Source of the DNA: Escherichia coli
Lineage (GTDB): Bacteria > Pseudomonadota > Gammaproteobacteria > Enterobacterales > Enterobacteriaceae
NCBI RefSeq assembly: GCF_003790525.1
Contig: NZ_CP033636.1
Strand: one strand, 5' to 3'
DNA: 64,000 bases
Shown: positions 55,749 through 61,178 of the stretch, piece by piece
Layout: each line of letters starts with the position of its first letter
How positions within the stretch are numbered: position 1 is the first letter of the stretch
Translations under genes and position numbers: made by a program
The notes under the pieces: generated by a model
Told to the model about the DNA's origin: nothing
What the model saw: only the letters and a program-made list of their open reading frames with translations
Databases searched by the model: none

Positions 55749-56804
55749 ATGAACAACAGCAAACATACAGTCATTGAAGTGGATACTAATCTAGTTGAAA
55801 TTGAAAAGGGATTTAATCCCCGAGAGGCGGTAATCGGAGATTTGTGTTACGAACAAGAACCTGTCAAGTCGATGATTGTGTCAATCAAACAAGCCTTTAA
55901 GGAAGGAAGGCAGGTTGATATGATCAAGGTCGTAAAAAGAAAAGGTAAATATTTAGTTCGTCAAGGTCATACTCGTTTTCATGGCTTAAAATTAGCAATT
56001 TCTGAAGGTGCTAATATTCCAAAATTATCTGTTATCCTAATCGATTATAAAAACGAAATTGAAGAATACCTTGAGAACCTCGATGGTAACAGAAGCAATG
56101 GGCTAAATCCGGTTGGGCAAGCTCATGCATTAGCTCATGCTGTTAGTCTCGGGTATTCGGTTGAAGAACTAGCAATGCGATATCAACGATCAACTACCGC
56201 AATTCGTAATATGCTAAAAATCCTTGATATGCCATTAGAGCTTCAACGTTTGATTAGCCTAAATCTAATCAAAAAAACGCTCGCCATTGAAATAATGTTA
56301 AAATATTCCAACGATCACAAAATGGTTTTAAAACATATAGAAGGTTTCTTACCTGGCGTTAAGAATATTGAGACTACAACGAGCAAAATTGTAGGCATAC
56401 CTGAACACAATGCAGCTGGAGCAGGACCAGACACCTTAAATAAAGGCGGACCAGAAAAGAAAAATTCGGCAGTCACTCGTAAGACTTTGGGTATTAAGCG
56501 CCTCTCGCATAAGAAAACAGAACGGCTAAAATCTGAATTTCTTGAGCTTGTGGAAAGTACACATACGGAATCTATAACGAATACTCAAACAGAACTAAAA
56601 TTTGGTAGAGATAGTGCACACTTGTTCAAAAATGTTAATAGTAATAATGTAATATTTTCCAATGATGGTGTTCAAATAATCTTGAATGATGAAAAGCTAA
56701 ATATTTTATTGTCTTTACTTAACGACGAAAATACAGCAATCATTGTTTCTAAACCAAAATTAGAAGAGCTTCTGGAAATTCGAGATCTCCTTAAGGAATA
56801 TTAA
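55749..56804 (+). CDS. ParB/Srx-fold N-terminal domain protein (ParB-like nuclease domain), paralog 1
   Basis: ORF track 351 aa; GFNPRE and VRQGHTRF motifs of the ParB N-terminal domain. Confidence 0.6.
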   Translation: MNNSKHTVIEVDTNLVEIEKGFNPREAVIGDLCYEQEPVKSMIVSIKQAFKEGRQVDMIKVVKRKGKYLVRQGHTRFHGLKLAISEGANIPKLSVILIDYKNEIEEYLENLDGNRSNGLNPVGQAHALAHAVSLGYSVEELAMRYQRSTTAIRNMLKILDMPLELQRLISLNLIKKTLAIEIMLKYSNDHKMVLKHIEGFLPGVKNIETTTSKIVGIPEHNAAGAGPDTLNKGGPEKKNSAVTRKTLGIKRLSHKKTERLKSEFLELVESTHTESITNTQTELKFGRDSAHLFKNVNSNNVIFSNDGVQIILNDEKLNILLSLLNDENTAIIVSKPKLEELLEIRDLLKEY

Positions 56805-56821
56805 AAACGAGGATTAGTTGA

Positions 56822-57022
56822 GTGATTAAACCTATAAAGCTGACTCTTATCGATAATTATAGTGATTTGCTTCTAACTCATGAAGTCCTTAAACGCAACA
56901 TGGAAGAGTTAGAACACGGTAAACGTTTTGATCAATTTCCTGAAGGGCATGACCACTATGAAAAAACTGTGAAAGAAGCTGTAGCAATCGTAGAGGCACG
57001 TTTGGAGGTGTTTCGAAAATGA
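56822..57022 (+). CDS. hypothetical small protein (66 aa)
   Basis: ORF track (GTG start); GAGGA upstream; stop overlaps start of next gene (ATGA). Confidence 0.4.
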   Translation: MIKPIKLTLIDNYSDLLLTHEVLKRNMEELEHGKRFDQFPEGHDHYEKTVKEAVAIVEARLEVFRK

Positions 57023-57735
57023 AATCTCTTTTCTTTACTCTTGATGGTCATATGGTACCAGCCTCAGTGAATGTATCACTTAACGGAGATGGAAATTATT
57101 ATGCACCTATCGAAAGAGAATGTAACGAATGTGCGGGCACAGGCCACAAAGGGGCTGATTTATGTGAAAAGTGTCATGGGGTACAAACAGTTGGACCCAT
57201 TATTGAAAAATTAGTGGCACTAGAGCCAATTACCTTTCTCGATAACATTCCGGAACTGCGTGTTAACCCAACACTCGAAGCATGGAAATCCAGAAACCAC
57301 GTCCTTATTGAGAAAGCAAAAAAGGCTAACACTAAGTTTTCTAATAGTATATTGGCGCAATTAGACAATAACCGTTTCTTGACAGAACGCCAGCTGGATT
57401 GTTTCTTTACAACTTTTGATGTGATGTTGTCTGAAACTCCGGAAAATGAACAAGAAATTTTAAAACATAGCTACAATATCGGCCAGGTCATAAGCATTGA
57501 ACTAACATTTACTGAAGTCAGGGCCGCGTACGCAAAAAGTAAAGGGAGTTATTTTTTTACATTTACTGGTAAAGTTAGAAATGACGGGATCGCTTTAACG
57601 GCCGATAAACAGGATCACATTTTATTGGGTGAACGTTATCATTTGACTGGAAAAGTCAGAAAATTCTATGAATTTGATTCGAAAAATTATGCTGCAATAA
57701 CAGTTTTTAAGTTAAATAAACTCCAAGACAGTTAA
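57019..57735 (+). CDS. hypothetical protein with DnaJ-type CxxCxGxG zinc-finger motif
   Basis: ORF track 238 aa; CNECAGTGHKGADLCEKCHG. Confidence 0.5.
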   Translation: MKSLFFTLDGHMVPASVNVSLNGDGNYYAPIERECNECAGTGHKGADLCEKCHGVQTVGPIIEKLVALEPITFLDNIPELRVNPTLEAWKSRNHVLIEKAKKANTKFSNSILAQLDNNRFLTERQLDCFFTTFDVMLSETPENEQEILKHSYNIGQVISIELTFTEVRAAYAKSKGSYFFTFTGKVRNDGIALTADKQDHILLGERYHLTGKVRKFYEFDSKNYAAITVFKLNKLQDS

Positions 57736-58824: not shown

Positions 58825-58832
58825 AATTTACT

Positions 58833-59666
58833 CTATTTCAGCACGGCCAGTATTTCTGTTTCCGTTTTCCGTGTATTCGGCTTACTTCCTACGGATCGGT
58901 AAGCGCTGAGTCTGTGTATGACGAATCCACGCTCTTCATAGAGGCCCAAAGTGAATGATGTCAGGCTATTTGATATCGCAACAGCAGCGCCTTTTCTGTG
59001 AGCGTCAACGAGCATATTTGCTAACAGCACGTGGTCGCTTTGGCTGAACGGTTTACCATCGTAACTGACAAAACTAGTTTTGCTTGTTTTGTCATATGGC
59101 GGATCACAGTAAATCTGATCTCCTTCACCGGTTGCGGCCAGAGTCTCCTCAAAACCAGCGGTGATCAGTTCAATACCTGAAAGACGAAATGAAAGGTAGT
59201 CTATTTTATTGAGGTCAAGCTTCAGTTCTGTATGTTTCCCCCACGGCACTGAATAGATTCTTTCTGAGTTATAGCGGCACATACCGTTATAGCCCAGGCG
59301 ATTCAGGGAGTAAAACAAAGCCGCTCTTTGAAGCGATTGACCAGAAATACAGGTTTTGTTGAAACGGTCCCTCATCTCATAGTAGTCCTTTTCGACAAAG
59401 GTTTTATCCGCCAAGTTTTGGACCTGATTTATAAAGTTAGTTTTCTGTCTTTGAATAGTCCTGTATAGGTTGATCAAGTCTGGATTGCTATCTGCAAGCA
59501 ATGCATTTTGTGCAAACATGTTCAGAAAAACGGCACCACCGCCTATAAAGGGTTCTACCCACCGGCAACTATGATCGTGTGGGTAGTGATGGCTGATGAA
59601 AGGCATCAGTTTCGTTTTTCCACCAGCCCATTTGATTATCGGCATGTGTCTGAGATGTCGAGTCAA
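58833..59666 (-). CDS. dam: Dam-like DNA N6-adenine methyltransferase (orphan; no adjacent restriction gene recognised)
   Basis: ORF track 277 aa; KWAGGK, FIGGGAV (AdoMet binding) and DPPY catalytic motif; true start possibly the second Met (59645). Confidence 0.8.
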   Translation of the reverse strand: MTRHLRHMPIIKWAGGKTKLMPFISHHYPHDHSCRWVEPFIGGGAVFLNMFAQNALLADSNPDLINLYRTIQRQKTNFINQVQNLADKTFVEKDYYEMRDRFNKTCISGQSLQRAALFYSLNRLGYNGMCRYNSERIYSVPWGKHTELKLDLNKIDYLSFRLSGIELITAGFEETLAATGEGDQIYCDPPYDKTSKTSFVSYDGKPFSQSDHVLLANMLVDAHRKGAAVAISNSLTSFTLGLYEERGFVIHRLSAYRSVGSKPNTRKTETEILAVLK

Positions 59667-60014
59667 AGTGTCTATACCTGAGAGAGAAATTTAGGTGCTG
59701 GTATCGTACCTAACCACGGGCTTTAACTAATAACTTAGGGAGCAAAAAAAAGTTGTTTAAGACGCACAGTTTTGACTTTCAGCATTTCGGATTTATAAGA
59801 TTTTTCCTCACTTATACCTGAACTTTATGTTTTGGATTTATGTATTTGTTTATGAAGCGATTTTTATGCCATCACAAGTAATGGGGAGCCACCTTTTTTT
59901 GTAAAAAATCAGAATAGGCTCAAAAAGTACCTTTTTTGCGAAAAATTATGAATTTTTTTTTCGGTAGTATCCCCGCTACGCAGAAAGTAAGCAGAAAAAT
60001 GTAACGGAGCCCCT

Positions 60015-61178
60015 ATGAGTGTTTTACTGACAGAACCTACACAGCAAGCTAATGACAAGGTCTTTAAAACGGCCCATGTTGCCTTTTCAGTAGTTACTGG
60101 CACAGGCCGTTACGTCACTGGGCTTAAACAGTTCCGTGATGCAAACCCTGAACTTTGTACTGAAGTAAGTGACCAGAAAGCATGGGCTATCCACCCTTCA
60201 GTAATTCAGGTCACGCCAGGCTTCAACTCCCGCGAAATGGGAATGGGTGACGATTACTATAAGCTCCCTGAGGTTGAAGAACACATCTACAACATCAAGA
60301 ATGCCTACATTCGAGGTGACTATGTAGACCCTATCCGAGTACGTGTCATTGATGGGGTACCTTTTGTTCGCCAGGGGCACTGCCGTTTAAAAGCCGCAAT
60401 GATGGCATGTGATGAAGATCATGACATCACAATCCTTTGCGTTGAGATTAAAGAAGATGAAATTGGCTGTGAGCTCGCGACCATTGATGGTAACCGTGGT
60501 CTTGCGCTTTCTCCTGTTGCGCTTGGCGAGTCCTATCGTCGCCTACATTCTCTTGCTGGCTGGTCACTCGAACGAATTGCTCAACGTGAAAATAAAAGCC
60601 CGACGACCATCAGTTCTCTTATCCGCCTGACAACCTGTTCTGTTGTTATCAAGAAATGGATTCATGCTGACGCTATTTCGTATGTTAACGTGCTTTCACT
60701 GATCGATGAGCTCGGCGAAACAGAAGCAATTTCACGTATCAAGAAGATGATCGCAGAACTTGAGCAGGCCGATGCGAATGGCATCACGGTGAAAAAAACC
60801 CAACATGGTCAGGTACGAGTCAGACCTTCAGACTTCAAGCCAGCACGGATTCCGCCGGTTATTGCCACAAAAGCCGTAGAAGGCGTCAAACTCATCACCA
60901 CCAGCTTATTACAGAAACTGGGGGATATTGAATTGCCGGAGCTGACAGATTCAAGTGCTGACGAAGAAATCAACATTACGTTGAACCGCAGTACTCTGGA
61001 GATGTTGAGAAATCTTTCAAAAGAGATCACAGAATCAGAGAACAAGCAGCTTCGCCGTGCGGAGAATCGTCAGGCAAAACTTAATGGTGAGAAGCCAAAA
61101 TACCCACGTAAAAAAAATGCTAAGAAGGCAGGGGAAGAGACCGATCAGGATACTGACCCACAGCCGGACGCAGAATAA
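60015..61178 (+). CDS. ParB/Srx-fold N-terminal domain protein, paralog 2, with acidic/basic C-terminal tail
   Basis: ORF track 387 aa; GFNSRE and VRQGHCRLKAA motifs aligning with paralog 1. Confidence 0.6.
   Translation: MSVLLTEPTQQANDKVFKTAHVAFSVVTGTGRYVTGLKQFRDANPELCTEVSDQKAWAIHPSVIQVTPGFNSREMGMGDDYYKLPEVEEHIYNIKNAYIRGDYVDPIRVRVIDGVPFVRQGHCRLKAAMMACDEDHDITILCVEIKEDEIGCELATIDGNRGLALSPVALGESYRRLHSLAGWSLERIAQRENKSPTTISSLIRLTTCSVVIKKWIHADAISYVNVLSLIDELGETEAISRIKKMIAELEQADANGITVKKTQHGQVRVRPSDFKPARIPPVIATKAVEGVKLITTSLLQKLGDIELPELTDSSADEEINITLNRSTLEMLRNLSKEITESENKQLRRAENRQAKLNGEKPKYPRKKNAKKAGEETDQDTDPQPDAE

What the first reader, a model, noticed from the sequence alone, without database searches (positions are those of the whole stretch)
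55749..61178. Two paralogous ParB/Srx-domain proteins outside any partition locus, associated with methyltransferases
The 55749-56804 and 60015-61178 products share the ParB N-terminal motifs (GFNPRE/GFNSRE; VRQGHTRF/VRQGHCRL) but have no ParA partner. They sit with a Dam-like methylase, a second N6-adenine methylase and a zinc-finger protein. Stand-alone ParB-like proteins near orphan methylases are often found in the early-transferred part of conjugative plasmids, where they act as regulators or anti-restriction factors. This cluster may be an establishment or anti-defence island.
Basis: partly seen in the sequence, partly recalled or inferred. Interest (0 to 1): 0.5.

Follow-up and report, generated by a model that had tools for sequence, protein, structure and literature searches.

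The report
Extra ParB-like DNA-binding proteins, IncH plasmids
Two uncharacterised relatives of the plasmid-segregation protein ParB sit beside two orphan DNA methylases in the conserved core of IncHI resistance plasmids; they are not a segregation system and more likely regulate the plasmid's own DNA.

Summary
The window is IncHI2 plasmid backbone, identical to more than 600 sequenced plasmids. ORFs 55749-56804 and 60015-61178 are paralogues (30% identity, E 4e-22). Confident models of both match ParB/Noc/KorB structures. They sit with a Dam methylase, a DUF4942 adenine methylase and a zinc-finger protein, with no ParA or centromere array nearby. The plasmid's real ParA/ParB and ParM/ParR loci lie 16-22 kb away.

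- The cluster abuts the RepHI2A origin and Tra2. It is 60 kb (R27) or 76 kb (R478) from oriT.
- Published R27 arrays show the ParB-like 2 orthologue (R0042) highly expressed in donor cells and co-induced with transfer genes. The ParB-like 1 operon is nearly silent.
- No known anti-restriction protein is present.

Both proteins belong to a large subfamily in which the CTP-binding box GERR is replaced by GHCR.

New findings:
- A third paralogue lies near oriT, outside the window.
- A 13-bp palindrome, AAAAGT-N-ACTTTT, is about 30-fold over-represented. It is scattered over IncH backbones and clustered upstream of the ParB-like 2 and 3 genes, trhA and oriT.

Best reading: these are non-partition ParB-family regulators, possibly loading at that palindrome, alongside orphan methylases. 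No step of the function has been tested.

The parts
55749..56804 (+). ParB-like 1 (351 aa; R27 orthologue R0037). ParB N-domain plus HTH in residues 1-211, a disordered linker, and a small alpha/beta C-terminal domain. Box I is GFNPR, box II RQGHTR, box III DGNR.
56822..57022 (+). 66-aa ORF, conserved with the cluster in IncHI1 and in a distant H-like plasmid.
57019..57735 (+). 238-aa protein with a DnaJ-type CxxCxGxG zinc finger (R0039).
57991..58824 (+). 277-aa hypothetical protein (R0040; the ORF could also start at 57967). It matches no known family. It is conserved in IncHI1, L013 and L027.
58059..58071 (.). Perfect copy of the palindrome AAAAGTTACTTTT at the 5' end of the 277-aa gene. 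The position is conserved in R27.
58833..59645 (-). Dam-family GATC N6-adenine methyltransferase (R0041), an orphan, divergent from ParB-like 2.
59923..59935 (.). One-mismatch copy of the palindrome (AAAAGTACCTTTT), 80-92 bp upstream of ParB-like 2, inside a 25-bp direct repeat pair (59891-59915 / 59929-59953). The same variant sits at the same place in IncHI1.
60015..61178 (+). ParB-like 2 (387 aa; R27 orthologue R0042, annotated 'partition protein'). Structured 55-residue N-terminal extension, ParB N-domain plus HTH, and long C-terminal helices. Box I is GFNSR, box II RQGHCR, box III DGNR.
61268..61294 (+). Intrinsic-terminator-like hairpin (GCCCCGTTTATGCGGGGC followed by a T-run) after ParB-like 2. 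This suggests the gene is monocistronic.
61426..63116 (+). DUF4942 plus gamma-type N6-adenine methyltransferase (NPPF motif; R0043). In this window a 1-bp deletion in a G5 run near 62947 stops the frame at 62958 (510 aa instead of 563).
63113..63289 (+). 58-aa ORF that overlaps the methylase stop codon; conserved in IncHI1.
54397..55272 (-). RepHI2A (Rep3/RepB-family) initiator gene, divergent from ParB-like 1. This is context, not part of the cluster.
55324..55525 (.). RepHI2A origin elements between rep and ParB-like 1: iterons (CATTCAnnnAAATGC type) and four GATC sites within about 55 bp. These are almost identical in IncHI1.

Best explanation
The two genes encode divergent, non-partition members of the ParB/Noc/KorB family. 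Each has an N-terminal nucleotide-pocket domain, a ParB-type helix-turn-helix, and a C-terminal domain unrelated to the other's. They are two of three paralogues carried by IncH plasmid backbones.

Proposed mechanism (inferred): they act as sequence-specific DNA-binding proteins on the plasmid's own DNA, as KorB does on RK2, the KorB-type ParB on IncC, and Noc, BisD or VirB elsewhere. They do not act as centromere proteins for a ParA motor.
- ParB-like 2 would be the abundant member, co-induced with the transfer regulon.
- The ParB-like 1 operon would be kept silent by the HtdA circuit.
- The likely target is the 13-bp palindrome AAAAGT-N-ACTTTT. It is scattered over the backbone and concentrated upstream of the ParB-like 2 and ParB-like 3 genes, trhA and the oriT/trhR region.
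- The pocket keeps the box I Asn/Arg and box II Gly/Arg that hold the CTP phosphates in ParB, but swaps GERR for GH(C/T)R and ENLQR for DGNR. A nucleotide-gated switch is therefore plausible, but not a canonical CTPase.
- The neighbouring Dam and DUF4942 enzymes are orphan N6-adenine methylases acting on plasmid DNA. They may give self-protection against restriction, or methylate the GATC-rich RepHI2A origin next door.

Shown: fold, paralogy, gene context, distance from oriT, synteny, enrichment and placement of the palindrome, and the published expression data.

Inferred: DNA target, regulatory role, nucleotide dependence, and the purpose of methylation.
For: Fold and family.

Not a partition locus:
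- No ParA or repeat array at the cluster.
- The true Par1 and Par2 loci lie elsewhere in the window.
- There is no similarity to the plasmid's own ParB.

Conserved backbone genes:
- The eight-gene block is syntenic in IncHI1 and in a distant H-like plasmid.
- ParB-like 2 is kept next to trhA in the Photorhabdus and Klebsiella H-type plasmids that lack the methylases.

Expression (PMC7366339):
- R0042 reads 6132 units at 25 C and 2278 at 37 C. It rises 3.4-fold in an htdA mutant and is induced under all conjugation-permissive conditions.
- R0037-R0041 read about 50-240 units and rise 4- to 19-fold in the htdA mutant at 25 C.

Palindrome:
- 18 sites in the window against 0.6 expected; no shuffle reached that number.
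- 24 perfect copies in about 200 kb of R478, 13 of them in the 19% of sequence outside long ORFs, p 1e-4.
- Flanking bases are random, so it is not part of a longer repeat.
- It is present in every H-type lineage examined and absent from the F leading region, the IncC loci, the phage loci and two of the three unrelated contigs that carry family members (L020, L022); the third (L024) has one one-mismatch copy.
- It lies upstream of ParB-like 2 in six of seven lineages.
- There are two copies upstream of ParB-like 3 in R478 and R27, and five perfect copies in the 657 bp upstream of it in a Klebsiella plasmid.

Positive control: the same scan recovers TTTCACATGTGAAA on IncC. That is the core of the dispersed parS sites shown by EMSA to bind IncC ParB (PMC10954446).

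Pocket: N, R, G and R are invariant in 93 family members.
Against: - Nothing shows which protein binds the palindrome.
- The recognition helix of ParB-like 2 varies widely among lineages that share an identical palindrome. This argues against ParB-like 2 as the binder. ParB-like 3, which lies outside the window, fits better.
- The palindrome also marks promoters known to respond to TrhR/TrhY and HtdA, so those regulators are equally good candidates.
- About half the sites are intragenic.
- No perfect or one-mismatch copy lies between rep and ParB-like 1.
- Box II and box III differ from every ParB shown to bind CTP, so the clamp analogy may fail.
- The conserved Cys/His pair could indicate an enzymatic, Srx-like role.
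- Conservation is stronger in the N-domain than in the HTH, which points to the pocket rather than DNA recognition as the core function.
- The R27 data are from microarrays of one plasmid, in donor cells only.
Confidence: 0.45

Rival explanations
1. Establishment or anti-defence island. The cluster is expressed on entry into a new host, the methylases protect incoming DNA from restriction, and the ParB-like proteins help the newcomer settle, as F HerB/YfjB does by reprogramming host transcription.
For: - There are two orphan methylases in 7.5 kb.
- Orphan methylases are among the families most enriched in leading regions (PMC11541004).
- F carries a ParB-like CTP-binding protein in its leading region that acts only just after transfer (PMC13370423).
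- The ParB-like 1 operon and dam are nearly silent in donors and are de-repressed only when the transfer circuit is released.
- All cluster genes except dam point the same way as the long block of small ORFs (hok, DUF957, DUF3085, DUF905, ParB-like 3) that runs from the relaxase operon towards the cluster.
Against: - The cluster is 60-76 kb from oriT in the nearer direction.
- ParB-like 2 is highly expressed in donors.
- BLASTP finds no significant match to HerB.
- There is no ArdA, KlcA, Ssb or PsiB type gene in the cluster.
- GATC methylation is redundant in dam+ enterobacterial hosts.
- In the Photorhabdus and Klebsiella H-type plasmids ParB-like 2 is kept without any methylase nearby.
Confidence: 0.2
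2. Genuine centromere-binding ParB proteins with dispersed cognate sites. They would work in trans with one of the plasmid's ParA or ParM motors, or position the RepHI2A replicon, as the IncC ParB does with its 14 scattered parS sites.
For: - The proteins have the ParB fold with an HTH.
- There is a dispersed palindrome with clusters next to the paralogue genes.
- The related MOBH IncC plasmids use dispersed parS sites (PMC10954446).
- R0042 was originally annotated as a 'partition protein' and is expressed at a level similar to parA/parB.
- ParB-like 1 abuts a replication origin.
Against: - There is no adjacent ParA.
- The plasmid already has two complete partition systems, each with its own site array.
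- The structured N-terminal extension of ParB-like 2 does not look like a ParA-stimulating peptide.
- Box II is non-canonical.
- The sites concentrate at promoters of transfer and surface-protein genes rather than in one centromere.
Confidence: 0.1
3. Enzymes of the ParB/Srx type rather than regulators. Candidate roles are an NTPase, nuclease or phosphotransferase using the invariant G-H-C-R pocket, possibly acting on DNA together with the methylases (as in ParB-methylase fusions or DndB/IbrB-type partners), or fertility inhibition like Osa.
For: - The N-domain pocket is the most conserved part of the family: N, R, G and R are invariant, and His-Cys is nearly so.
- Pfam ParBc matches none of the 93 members.
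- There is structural similarity to sulfiredoxin and to serine kinase SerK.
- Dam is adjacent in five lineages, four of which also carry DUF4942.
- Phage relatives sit near methylases and HNH nucleases.
Against: - A full ParB-type HTH domain is retained in 73 of 93 members.
- The best structural matches are the DNA-clamp ParBs, not the HTH-less enzymes.
- ParB-like 2 has its own promoter and terminator and is not co-expressed with either methylase.
- ParB-like 2 persists without the methylases in the Photorhabdus and Klebsiella H-type plasmids.
Confidence: 0.15
4. The palindrome belongs to another regulator (TrhR/TrhY, HtdA or an unidentified HTH protein). The ParB-like genes would merely be members of that regulon, and their own targets would be unknown.
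For: - Sites lie in front of trhA, trhR and mobI, operons known to be controlled by TrhR/TrhY and HtdA (PMC7366339).
- R0042 and R0037-R0041 respond to htdA.
- The ParB-like 2 recognition helix is poorly conserved.
Against: - TrhY carries a Cys4 motif. From my own knowledge this resembles FlhC, and FlhD/FlhC-type activators bind long composite sites, not a compact 13-bp palindrome.
- TrhR, TrhY and HtdA matched no NCBIfam family.
- The densest site clusters lie directly upstream of ParB-like genes.
Confidence: 0.3

Closest known systems
KorB of IncP plasmid RK2 (ParB-family CTP clamp and global repressor)
   Same: - Plasmid-encoded ParB fold with an HTH. It gives the best TM scores for both models (8qa9: 0.58-0.66).
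- It acts through a 13-bp palindromic operator present in about a dozen copies at promoters over the backbone (own knowledge).
- It is an abundant protein.
   Different: - KorB has canonical GxRR box II (own knowledge) and a KorB domain. It is encoded beside IncC/ParA and also serves partition.
- Here box II is GHCR, no KorB domain is detected in these two proteins, and there is no ParA neighbour.
- Profile similarity to KorB (1e-8) is weaker than to chromosomal ParB (1e-17).
HerB/YfjB of plasmid F (leading-region ParB-like protein; preprint PMC13370423)
   Same: A stand-alone ParB-like protein of a conjugative plasmid that is not a partition protein. It has an N-domain plus HTH, and a DNA methylase lies in the same region.
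   Different: - BLASTP finds no significant match.
- HerB is 652 aa with extra D3/D4 domains and binds CTP through boxes I-III.
- It lies a few kb from oriT, is silent in donors, and binds the host chromosome.
- ParB-like 2 is 60-76 kb from oriT and strongly expressed in donors.
ParB of IncC plasmids with 14 dispersed parS sites (PMC10954446)
   Same: A related MOBH plasmid backbone in which a palindrome scattered over the plasmid is bound by a ParB-family protein. One copy sits in the promoter of its own operon.
   Different: - The IncC protein is the ParA-linked, KorB-domain partition protein.
- IncC additionally carries a stand-alone homologue of the proteins studied here (30% identity). 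It lies 1 kb upstream of an orphan methylase and is uncharacterised.
Noc, BisD and VirB (repurposed ParB-family CTP switches)
   Same: ParB fold used for tasks other than segregation, with specific palindromic loading sites (Noc structures are among the top hits). BisD and VirB act as transcription activators or anti-silencers on mobile elements (own knowledge; BisD is cited).
   Different: - From my own knowledge, all have canonical CTP-binding boxes.
- No NCBIfam model other than parB_part and nucleoid_noc reached E 0.01.
- An anti-H-NS role in IncH plasmids is only a speculation.
Orphan methylases of plasmid leading regions and phages (Dam family; DUF4942 methylases of SSU5-like phage-plasmids)
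   Same: - Dam matches above its family threshold.
- The DUF4942 enzyme matches phrog_6263 over its full length (E 1e-111) and is 30-31% identical to the SSU5 methylase.
- No cognate nuclease is nearby.
   Different: The location is not oriT-proximal. The specificity of the DUF4942 enzyme is unknown, and its copy in this window carries a frameshift.

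Membership tests
ParB/Srx superfamily (fold) | ParB N-terminal alpha/beta domain, as seen in solved ParB, Noc, KorB and sulfiredoxin structures. | tested here: met
   AF2 models have pLDDT 85-89. Foldseek gives E 2e-8 to 5e-7 to ParB/Noc/KorB, and also matches sulfiredoxin 6ky4.
Canonical partition ParB (type Ia/Ib) | Encoded in an operon with a ParA ATPase. | tested here: not met
   No ParA lies in the cluster. The nearest ParA is 16 kb away and has its own ParB.
Canonical partition ParB (type Ia/Ib) | Centromere repeats or a parS array adjacent to the gene. 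| tested here: not met
   No tandem array lies between 43 and 64 kb, and there is no recurrent perfect palindrome of 12 bp or more. Only single copies of the 13-bp palindrome are present.
Canonical partition ParB (type Ia/Ib) | CTP-binding boxes: box II GERRxR and box III ENLQR. | tested here: not met
   Box II is RQGH(T/C)R and box III is DGNR. Only the box I Asn/Arg and the box II Gly and last Arg are kept.
Canonical partition ParB (type Ia/Ib) | Score above family thresholds (Pfam ParBc, TIGR00180). | tested here: not met
   There is no ParBc hit for either protein or for any of 93 relatives. TIGR00180 scores 33.9 and 32.5 bits against a cutoff of 58.45.
Canonical partition ParB (type Ia/Ib) | ParB-type HTH DNA-binding domain. 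| tested here: met
   HTH_ParB PF17762, E 1.4e-5 and 1.7e-4.
KorB-type global regulator | KorB domain, and a multi-copy palindromic operator bound by the protein. | tested here: inconclusive
   No KorB domain is found in these two proteins (6 of 93 relatives have one). A multi-copy palindrome exists, but binding was not tested.
Leading-region ParB-like HerB/YfjB | Sequence similarity to HerB, its D3/D4 dimerisation module, and an oriT-proximal position. | tested here: not met
   BLASTP gives no significant hit. The C-terminal regions are shorter and unrelated. The cluster is 60-76 kb from oriT.
CTP-dependent DNA clamp (functional class) | Binds and hydrolyses CTP, and closes on DNA after loading at a specific site. 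| not testable with these tools
   Only motif conservation can be read. The arginine equivalent to B. subtilis R80 is invariant, but the rest of the box is changed.
Dam family methyltransferase | Full-length match above the TIGR00571 cutoff. | tested here: met
   228.1 bits against 114.85, covering residues 8-275.
Anti-restriction or anti-defence proteins (ArdA, KlcA/ArdB, Ocr and the like) | Similarity of any cluster protein to a known family. | tested here: not met
   PHROGs, NCBIfam and PADLOC return only methylase and ParB-like matches. There is no dedicated anti-defence library among the tools.

The most novel reading that the evidence does not exclude
IncH plasmids carry a three-member set of ParB-like proteins with a non-canonical G-(H/A)-C-R nucleotide pocket. 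One or more of them would load at some 25-40 dispersed copies of the palindrome AAAAGT-N-ACTTTT. This would form a plasmid-wide control layer that couples the thermoregulated transfer regulon (trhA, the oriT/trhR region, the Ig-like surface proteins), the paralogues' own genes and the methylase cluster. It could, for example, counteract H-NS/Hha silencing of this AT-rich plasmid. That would be a new kind of nucleotide switch within the ParB family, and the missing DNA-binding component of IncH conjugation control.
Probability: 0.25. Interest if true: 0.75.

Novelty: new variant of a known kind. Interest (0 to 1): 0.5.

Why it matters
- IncHI1 and IncHI2 plasmids are major carriers of mcr-1, ESBL genes and typhoid multidrug resistance. 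This block is identical in more than 600 sequenced plasmids.
- Their transfer is controlled by a circuit (HtdA, TrhR/TrhY, H-NS/Hha) for which I found no compact DNA operator in the papers I searched or read.
- An abundant ParB-family protein co-induced with transfer, plus a conserved dispersed palindrome at the relevant promoters, gives a directly testable candidate for that missing link.
- The GHCR subfamily has at least 1273 clusters at 50% identity in plasmids and phages. It would extend the range of nucleotide pockets used by ParB-type switches.
- If the proteins turn out to be ordinary accessory DNA-binding proteins, the finding is still a useful annotation correction. They are not partition proteins, and the cluster is not a leading region.

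Tried and rejected
- Canonical partition role: rejected (see the membership test).
- Recurrent perfect palindromes of 10-16 bp in the window as parS candidates: none were found. The 13-bp motif with a free central base appeared only with a gapped half-site scan.
- The 25-bp direct repeats upstream of ParB-like 2 as a separate operator: the extended pattern has no further convincing copies, and it contains the palindrome.
- Similarity to F HerB and to the plasmid's own ParB: none.
- PADLOC defence models for all cluster proteins: only methylase matches.
- Sigma-70 promoter and terminator scans: not enriched over shuffles. Only the terminator after ParB-like 2 is convincing.
- R27 'partition protein' R0153 next to a cytosine methylase as a further ParB-methylase pair: no ParB-like paralogue was found there, and the small gene divergently adjacent to the cytosine methylase is annotated as a thermonuclease-family protein. 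It is therefore presumably an RP4 ParB-type nuclease, not ParB/Srx.
- Literature searches for functional work on these genes, on DUF4942, or on the palindrome: nothing relevant beyond the R27 microarray paper.
- Transfer polarity from gene orientation: left undecided. IncC has its small-ORF array pointing away from oriT, IncH has it pointing towards oriT, and F-based analogies give conflicting answers.
- Discriminating the palindrome binder by recognition-helix conservation: suggestive only.

Full report
**What the window is.** The 8.2 kb around the finding is 100% identical to hundreds of IncHI2 plasmids from Salmonella, E. coli, Enterobacter and Klebsiella: 1118 records match, 660 of them at 99% or more. 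Against the reference R478 the window runs backwards from about 266 kb, through coordinate 1, into Tra2.
- The minus strand up to 53275 carries the Tra2 genes trhA, trhL, trhE, trhK, trhB and onward.
- The RepHI2A initiator lies at 54397-55272(-), flanked by iterons.
- Then comes the cluster: ParB-like 1 (55749-56804), a 66-aa ORF, a zinc-finger protein (57019-57735), a 277-aa hypothetical (57991-58824), Dam (58833-59645, minus strand), ParB-like 2 (60015-61178), a DUF4942 methylase (61426-63116) and a 58-aa ORF.

**Check of the observation.**
- Both ORFs and the quoted motifs are there.
- The proteins are paralogues: 30% identity over 174 residues, E 4e-22.
- Pfam sees only the ParB HTH domain.
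- The TIGR00180 ParB model matches below its cutoff.
- A phage family of ParB-like proteins, phrog_1033, matches both strongly.
- A profile of 93 relatives hits solved Spo0J/ParB/Noc chains at E ~1e-17 and KorB at 1e-8.
- AlphaFold2 models are confident (pLDDT 89.4 and 85.2). Their best structural matches are the CTP/CDP-bound ParB, Noc and KorB structures, with sulfiredoxin, PadC and SerK further down.
- Dam scores well above its family cutoff.
- The DUF4942 protein carries NPPF and matches a phage DNA-methyltransferase family over its full length.

**Not a partition locus.**
- The cluster has no ParA and no repeat array.
- The same window holds the plasmid's real partition systems. ParA is at 38547-39800(-) and ParB at 37546-38550(-), beside a 2.6-kb array of 249-bp repeats at 40180-42769. 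ParM is at 33403-34440(-), with its partner next to it.
- ParB-like 1 shows no significant similarity to that ParB.

**What kind of ParB relatives these are.**
- A profile search of 1.84 billion representative proteins finds 1273 clusters at E 1e-10 or better.
- Nearly all of the best 150 carry G(F/W/Y)NxR and (D/Q/E)GHCR.
- In alignments to solved ParBs, GHCR lies on the CTP-binding box GERR and DGNR lies on ENLQR.
- Across 93 members only four pocket residues are invariant: the Asn and Arg of box I, and the Gly and last Arg of box II.
- That last Arg corresponds to the B. subtilis R80 needed for CTP binding, as stated in the HerB preprint.
- None of the 93 matches Pfam ParBc, while 73 match HTH_ParB.
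- The two proteins therefore belong to a distinct, widespread and uncharacterised branch of the ParB family. Its changed pocket may still hold a nucleotide.
- The C-terminal parts of the two paralogues are unrelated to each other.

**Conservation and context.**
- The whole eight-gene block is syntenic in IncHI1, including R27, where the genes are R0037 to R0044.
- It is also syntenic in a distant H-like metagenomic plasmid in which the Rep gene is replaced.
- A contig with only 44-57% identical proteins keeps hypothetical / Dam(-) / ParB-like 2 / DUF4942 / small ORF. Another contig keeps Dam(-) / ParB-like 2.
- In a Photorhabdus plasmid and in Klebsiella IncHI1B-type plasmids, a ParB-like 2 orthologue sits near the Tra2 genes and an Ig-like protein gene, with no methylase nearby.
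- ParB-like 2 is thus a universal H-type backbone gene. The methylase association is frequent but not obligatory.
- More distant relatives lie in long one-directional runs of small unknown genes, some with Dcm-type or other methylases a few kb away.
- Others lie in phages: next to the replication genes of lambdoid Klebsiella phages, and near a methylase and an HNH nuclease in 9NA-like phages.
- IncC plasmids carry a 30%-identical stand-alone homologue. It is 1 kb upstream of an orphan methylase and 3 kb upstream of the true ParA/KorB-type ParB.

**Position relative to oriT.**
- In R478, MobI, the MobH relaxase and the coupling protein lie at 191.2-197.6 kb, with trhR/trhY divergent at 189.1-190.4 kb. 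The oriT region is at about 190.4-191.2 kb.
- The cluster spans 266.7-274.3 kb, so it is 76 kb away one way and 191 kb the other.
- In R27 the distances are 60 kb and 112 kb.
- The cluster is therefore not the oriT-proximal leading region. Transfer polarity could not be established.

**Published expression data.** R27 microarrays (PMC7366339) give the following.
- R0042, listed there as 'partition protein' and lying between the adenine methylase R0041 and the 'restriction methylase' R0043, reads 6132 units at 25 C and 2278 at 37 C.
- The authors list it among genes induced under all conditions that promote conjugation. It rises 3.4-fold more in an htdA mutant.
- R0037 (ParB-like 1) sits at the detection threshold of about 100 units.
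- R0037-R0041 rise 4- to 19-fold in the htdA mutant at 25 C only.
- R0043 is weakly expressed (217 and 394 units).
- The two paralogues therefore run under different regimes.
- ParB-like 2 behaves like a resident, abundant DNA-binding protein tied to the transfer regulon. It does not behave like the zygotically induced F protein HerB, which is undetectable in donors.
- A terminator-like hairpin follows ParB-like 2. This fits its separate expression level.

**A dispersed palindrome.**
- A gapped half-site scan of R478 found AAAAGT-N-ACTTTT 24 times in about 200 kb.
- The window has 18 copies at one mismatch or fewer against 0.6 expected, and no shuffle reached that count.
- Flanking bases are random and the central base is A or T in 88% of sites.
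- 13 of 24 perfect sites lie in the 19% of sequence outside long ORFs (p 1e-4).
- Sites sit upstream of trhA, htdT, the Ig-like protein genes and trhR, and in the oriT intergenic region. R27 has two there.
- The motif is found in IncHI1, IncHI2, the distant H-like plasmid, the Photorhabdus plasmid and the Klebsiella type. It is absent from the F, IncC and phage loci and from two of the three unrelated family-member contigs (L020, L022); L024 has one one-mismatch copy.
- In six of seven lineages a copy lies 14-370 bp upstream of ParB-like 2.
- Within the cluster there are two copies: 58059 (perfect, with a conserved position in R27) and 59923 (one mismatch, the same variant as in IncHI1).
- As a positive control, the same scan on IncC recovers TTTCACATGTGAAA nine times. 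That is the core of the 14 dispersed parS sites shown by EMSA to bind the IncC ParB (PMC10954446).
- A full-text search for the IncH motif found nothing relevant.

**A third paralogue.**
- tblastn shows three matching places per IncHI1 or IncHI2 plasmid and two per Klebsiella plasmid.
- The third gene is R478 216013-217197(-) and R27 92336-93541, 394-401 aa, with box II RQGACR.
- It lies outside the window, in the island of small one-directional genes (hok, DUF957, DUF3085, DUF905) that follows the relaxase operon. It is 15-25 kb from oriT.
- It has two palindrome copies 90-220 bp upstream in both R478 and R27.
- Its 35%-identical Klebsiella orthologue has five perfect copies in the 657 bp upstream.
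- That plasmid type also has five copies upstream of trhA and two upstream of ParB-like 2.
- Klebsiella plasmids lack ParB-like 1, so only ParB-like 2 and 3 are found in all three H-type groups compared (IncHI1, IncHI2 and the Klebsiella type).

**Who binds the palindrome.** This is not settled.
- The ParB-like 2 recognition helix is poorly conserved among lineages with the same motif. That argues against ParB-like 2.
- ParB-like 3 keeps an S-x-x-H-(L/V)-R-x-(M/L)-(V/L)-(R/K)-V pattern between 35%-identical orthologues.
- ParB-like 1 has a well-conserved helix but is silent in R27 and absent from Klebsiella plasmids.
- TrhR/TrhY and HtdA remain candidates. They matched no NCBIfam family.
- TrhY has a Cys4 motif. 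From my own knowledge this recalls FlhC-type activators, which use long composite sites.

**Conclusion.**
- The cluster is a conserved IncH backbone module between two replicons. It contains two non-partition ParB-family proteins of a distinct GHCR branch and two orphan adenine methylases.
- The most likely role of the ParB-like proteins is sequence-specific binding to plasmid DNA with a regulatory outcome, possibly nucleotide-gated and possibly at the palindrome.
- The methylases most likely modify plasmid DNA for protection, and perhaps for the GATC-rich RepHI2A origin that lies 230 bp from ParB-like 1.
- The establishment/anti-defence reading is not excluded. It lacks positional support and conflicts with the donor-cell expression of ParB-like 2.
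- Everything about function is inference. No binding, nucleotide or phenotype data exist for these proteins.

Noticed in passing
window, perfect copies at 17514, 24037, 31477, 31671, 48128, 53490, 54275, 58059; one-mismatch copies at 3073, 6644, 10389, 17038, 17832, 27584, 36711, 50187, 50437, 59923: The 13-bp palindrome AAAAGT-N-ACTTTT is about 30-fold over-represented (18 sites against 0.6 expected). It is enriched outside ORFs and conserved in every H-type plasmid lineage examined. It clusters upstream of trhA, the oriT/trhR region, the Ig-like protein genes and the ParB-like 2 and 3 genes. I found no mention of it in the searchable literature.
   Followed up: partly
outside the window: R478 216013-217197(-) = L018:41014-42198; R27 92336-93541 = L033:38336-39541; Klebsiella pKPN13_1 = L034:5992-7233: A third ParB-like paralogue (394-413 aa; box II RQGACR or RQGHCR) lies in the hok/DUF957/DUF905 island 15-25 kb from oriT. 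Two to five perfect palindrome copies sit directly upstream of it. It is a better candidate for a leading-region ParB-like protein, and for the palindrome binder, than the two in the window.
   Followed up: partly
window 62947-62950: A G5 run in other IncHI2 plasmids is G4 here. This shifts the frame of the DUF4942 methylase after its NPPF motif (510 aa instead of 563). It could be a sequencing error in a homopolymer or a real inactivation.
   Followed up: partly
window 55470-55525: Four GATC sites lie within about 55 bp next to the RepHI2A iterons and are nearly identical in IncHI1. Dam-methylated, SeqA-sequestered origins look like this, and a plasmid dam gene lies 3.3 kb away.
   Followed up: no
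window 40180-42769: A tandem array of 10.6 copies of a 249-bp unit lies next to the true ParA/ParB operon. It is presumably the Par1 centromere region. The Klebsiella H-type plasmid has 12 copies of AACAAC-N3-GTTGTT around its ParA/ParB (L028 15125-19565).
   Followed up: partly
IncC plasmid NZ_CP029123.1 (L031, L032): IncC carries a stand-alone homologue of these ParB-like proteins (58837-59775). It is 1 kb upstream of an orphan methylase, 26 kb from mobI/oriT, and separate from the ParA/KorB-type ParB. IncC and IncH also share S49 peptidase, DsbA, thermonuclease, PAPS-reductase-family and Tus-like genes.
   Followed up: partly
window 59891-59915 and 59929-59953: Two 25-bp direct repeats, 38 bp apart, lie in the divergent dam / ParB-like 2 promoter region. 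The second contains the one-mismatch palindrome.
   Followed up: partly
R27 140402-142567 (L026:40403-42568): The R27 gene called 'partition protein' R0153, said to lie next to the cytosine methylase R0154 and co-induced with transfer, is apparently not a ParB/Srx protein. No ParB-like paralogue was found there, and the small gene divergently adjacent to the methylase is annotated as a thermonuclease-family protein. The numbering link to R0153 is my inference.
   Followed up: partly
R478 189088-190402 (L018:14089-15403): TrhY ends in a Cys4 motif (CEKC...CPRC). IncC encodes an FlhC-family activator in the equivalent neighbourhood, so TrhR/TrhY may be FlhD/FlhC-like. No NCBIfam family matched.
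   Followed up: no
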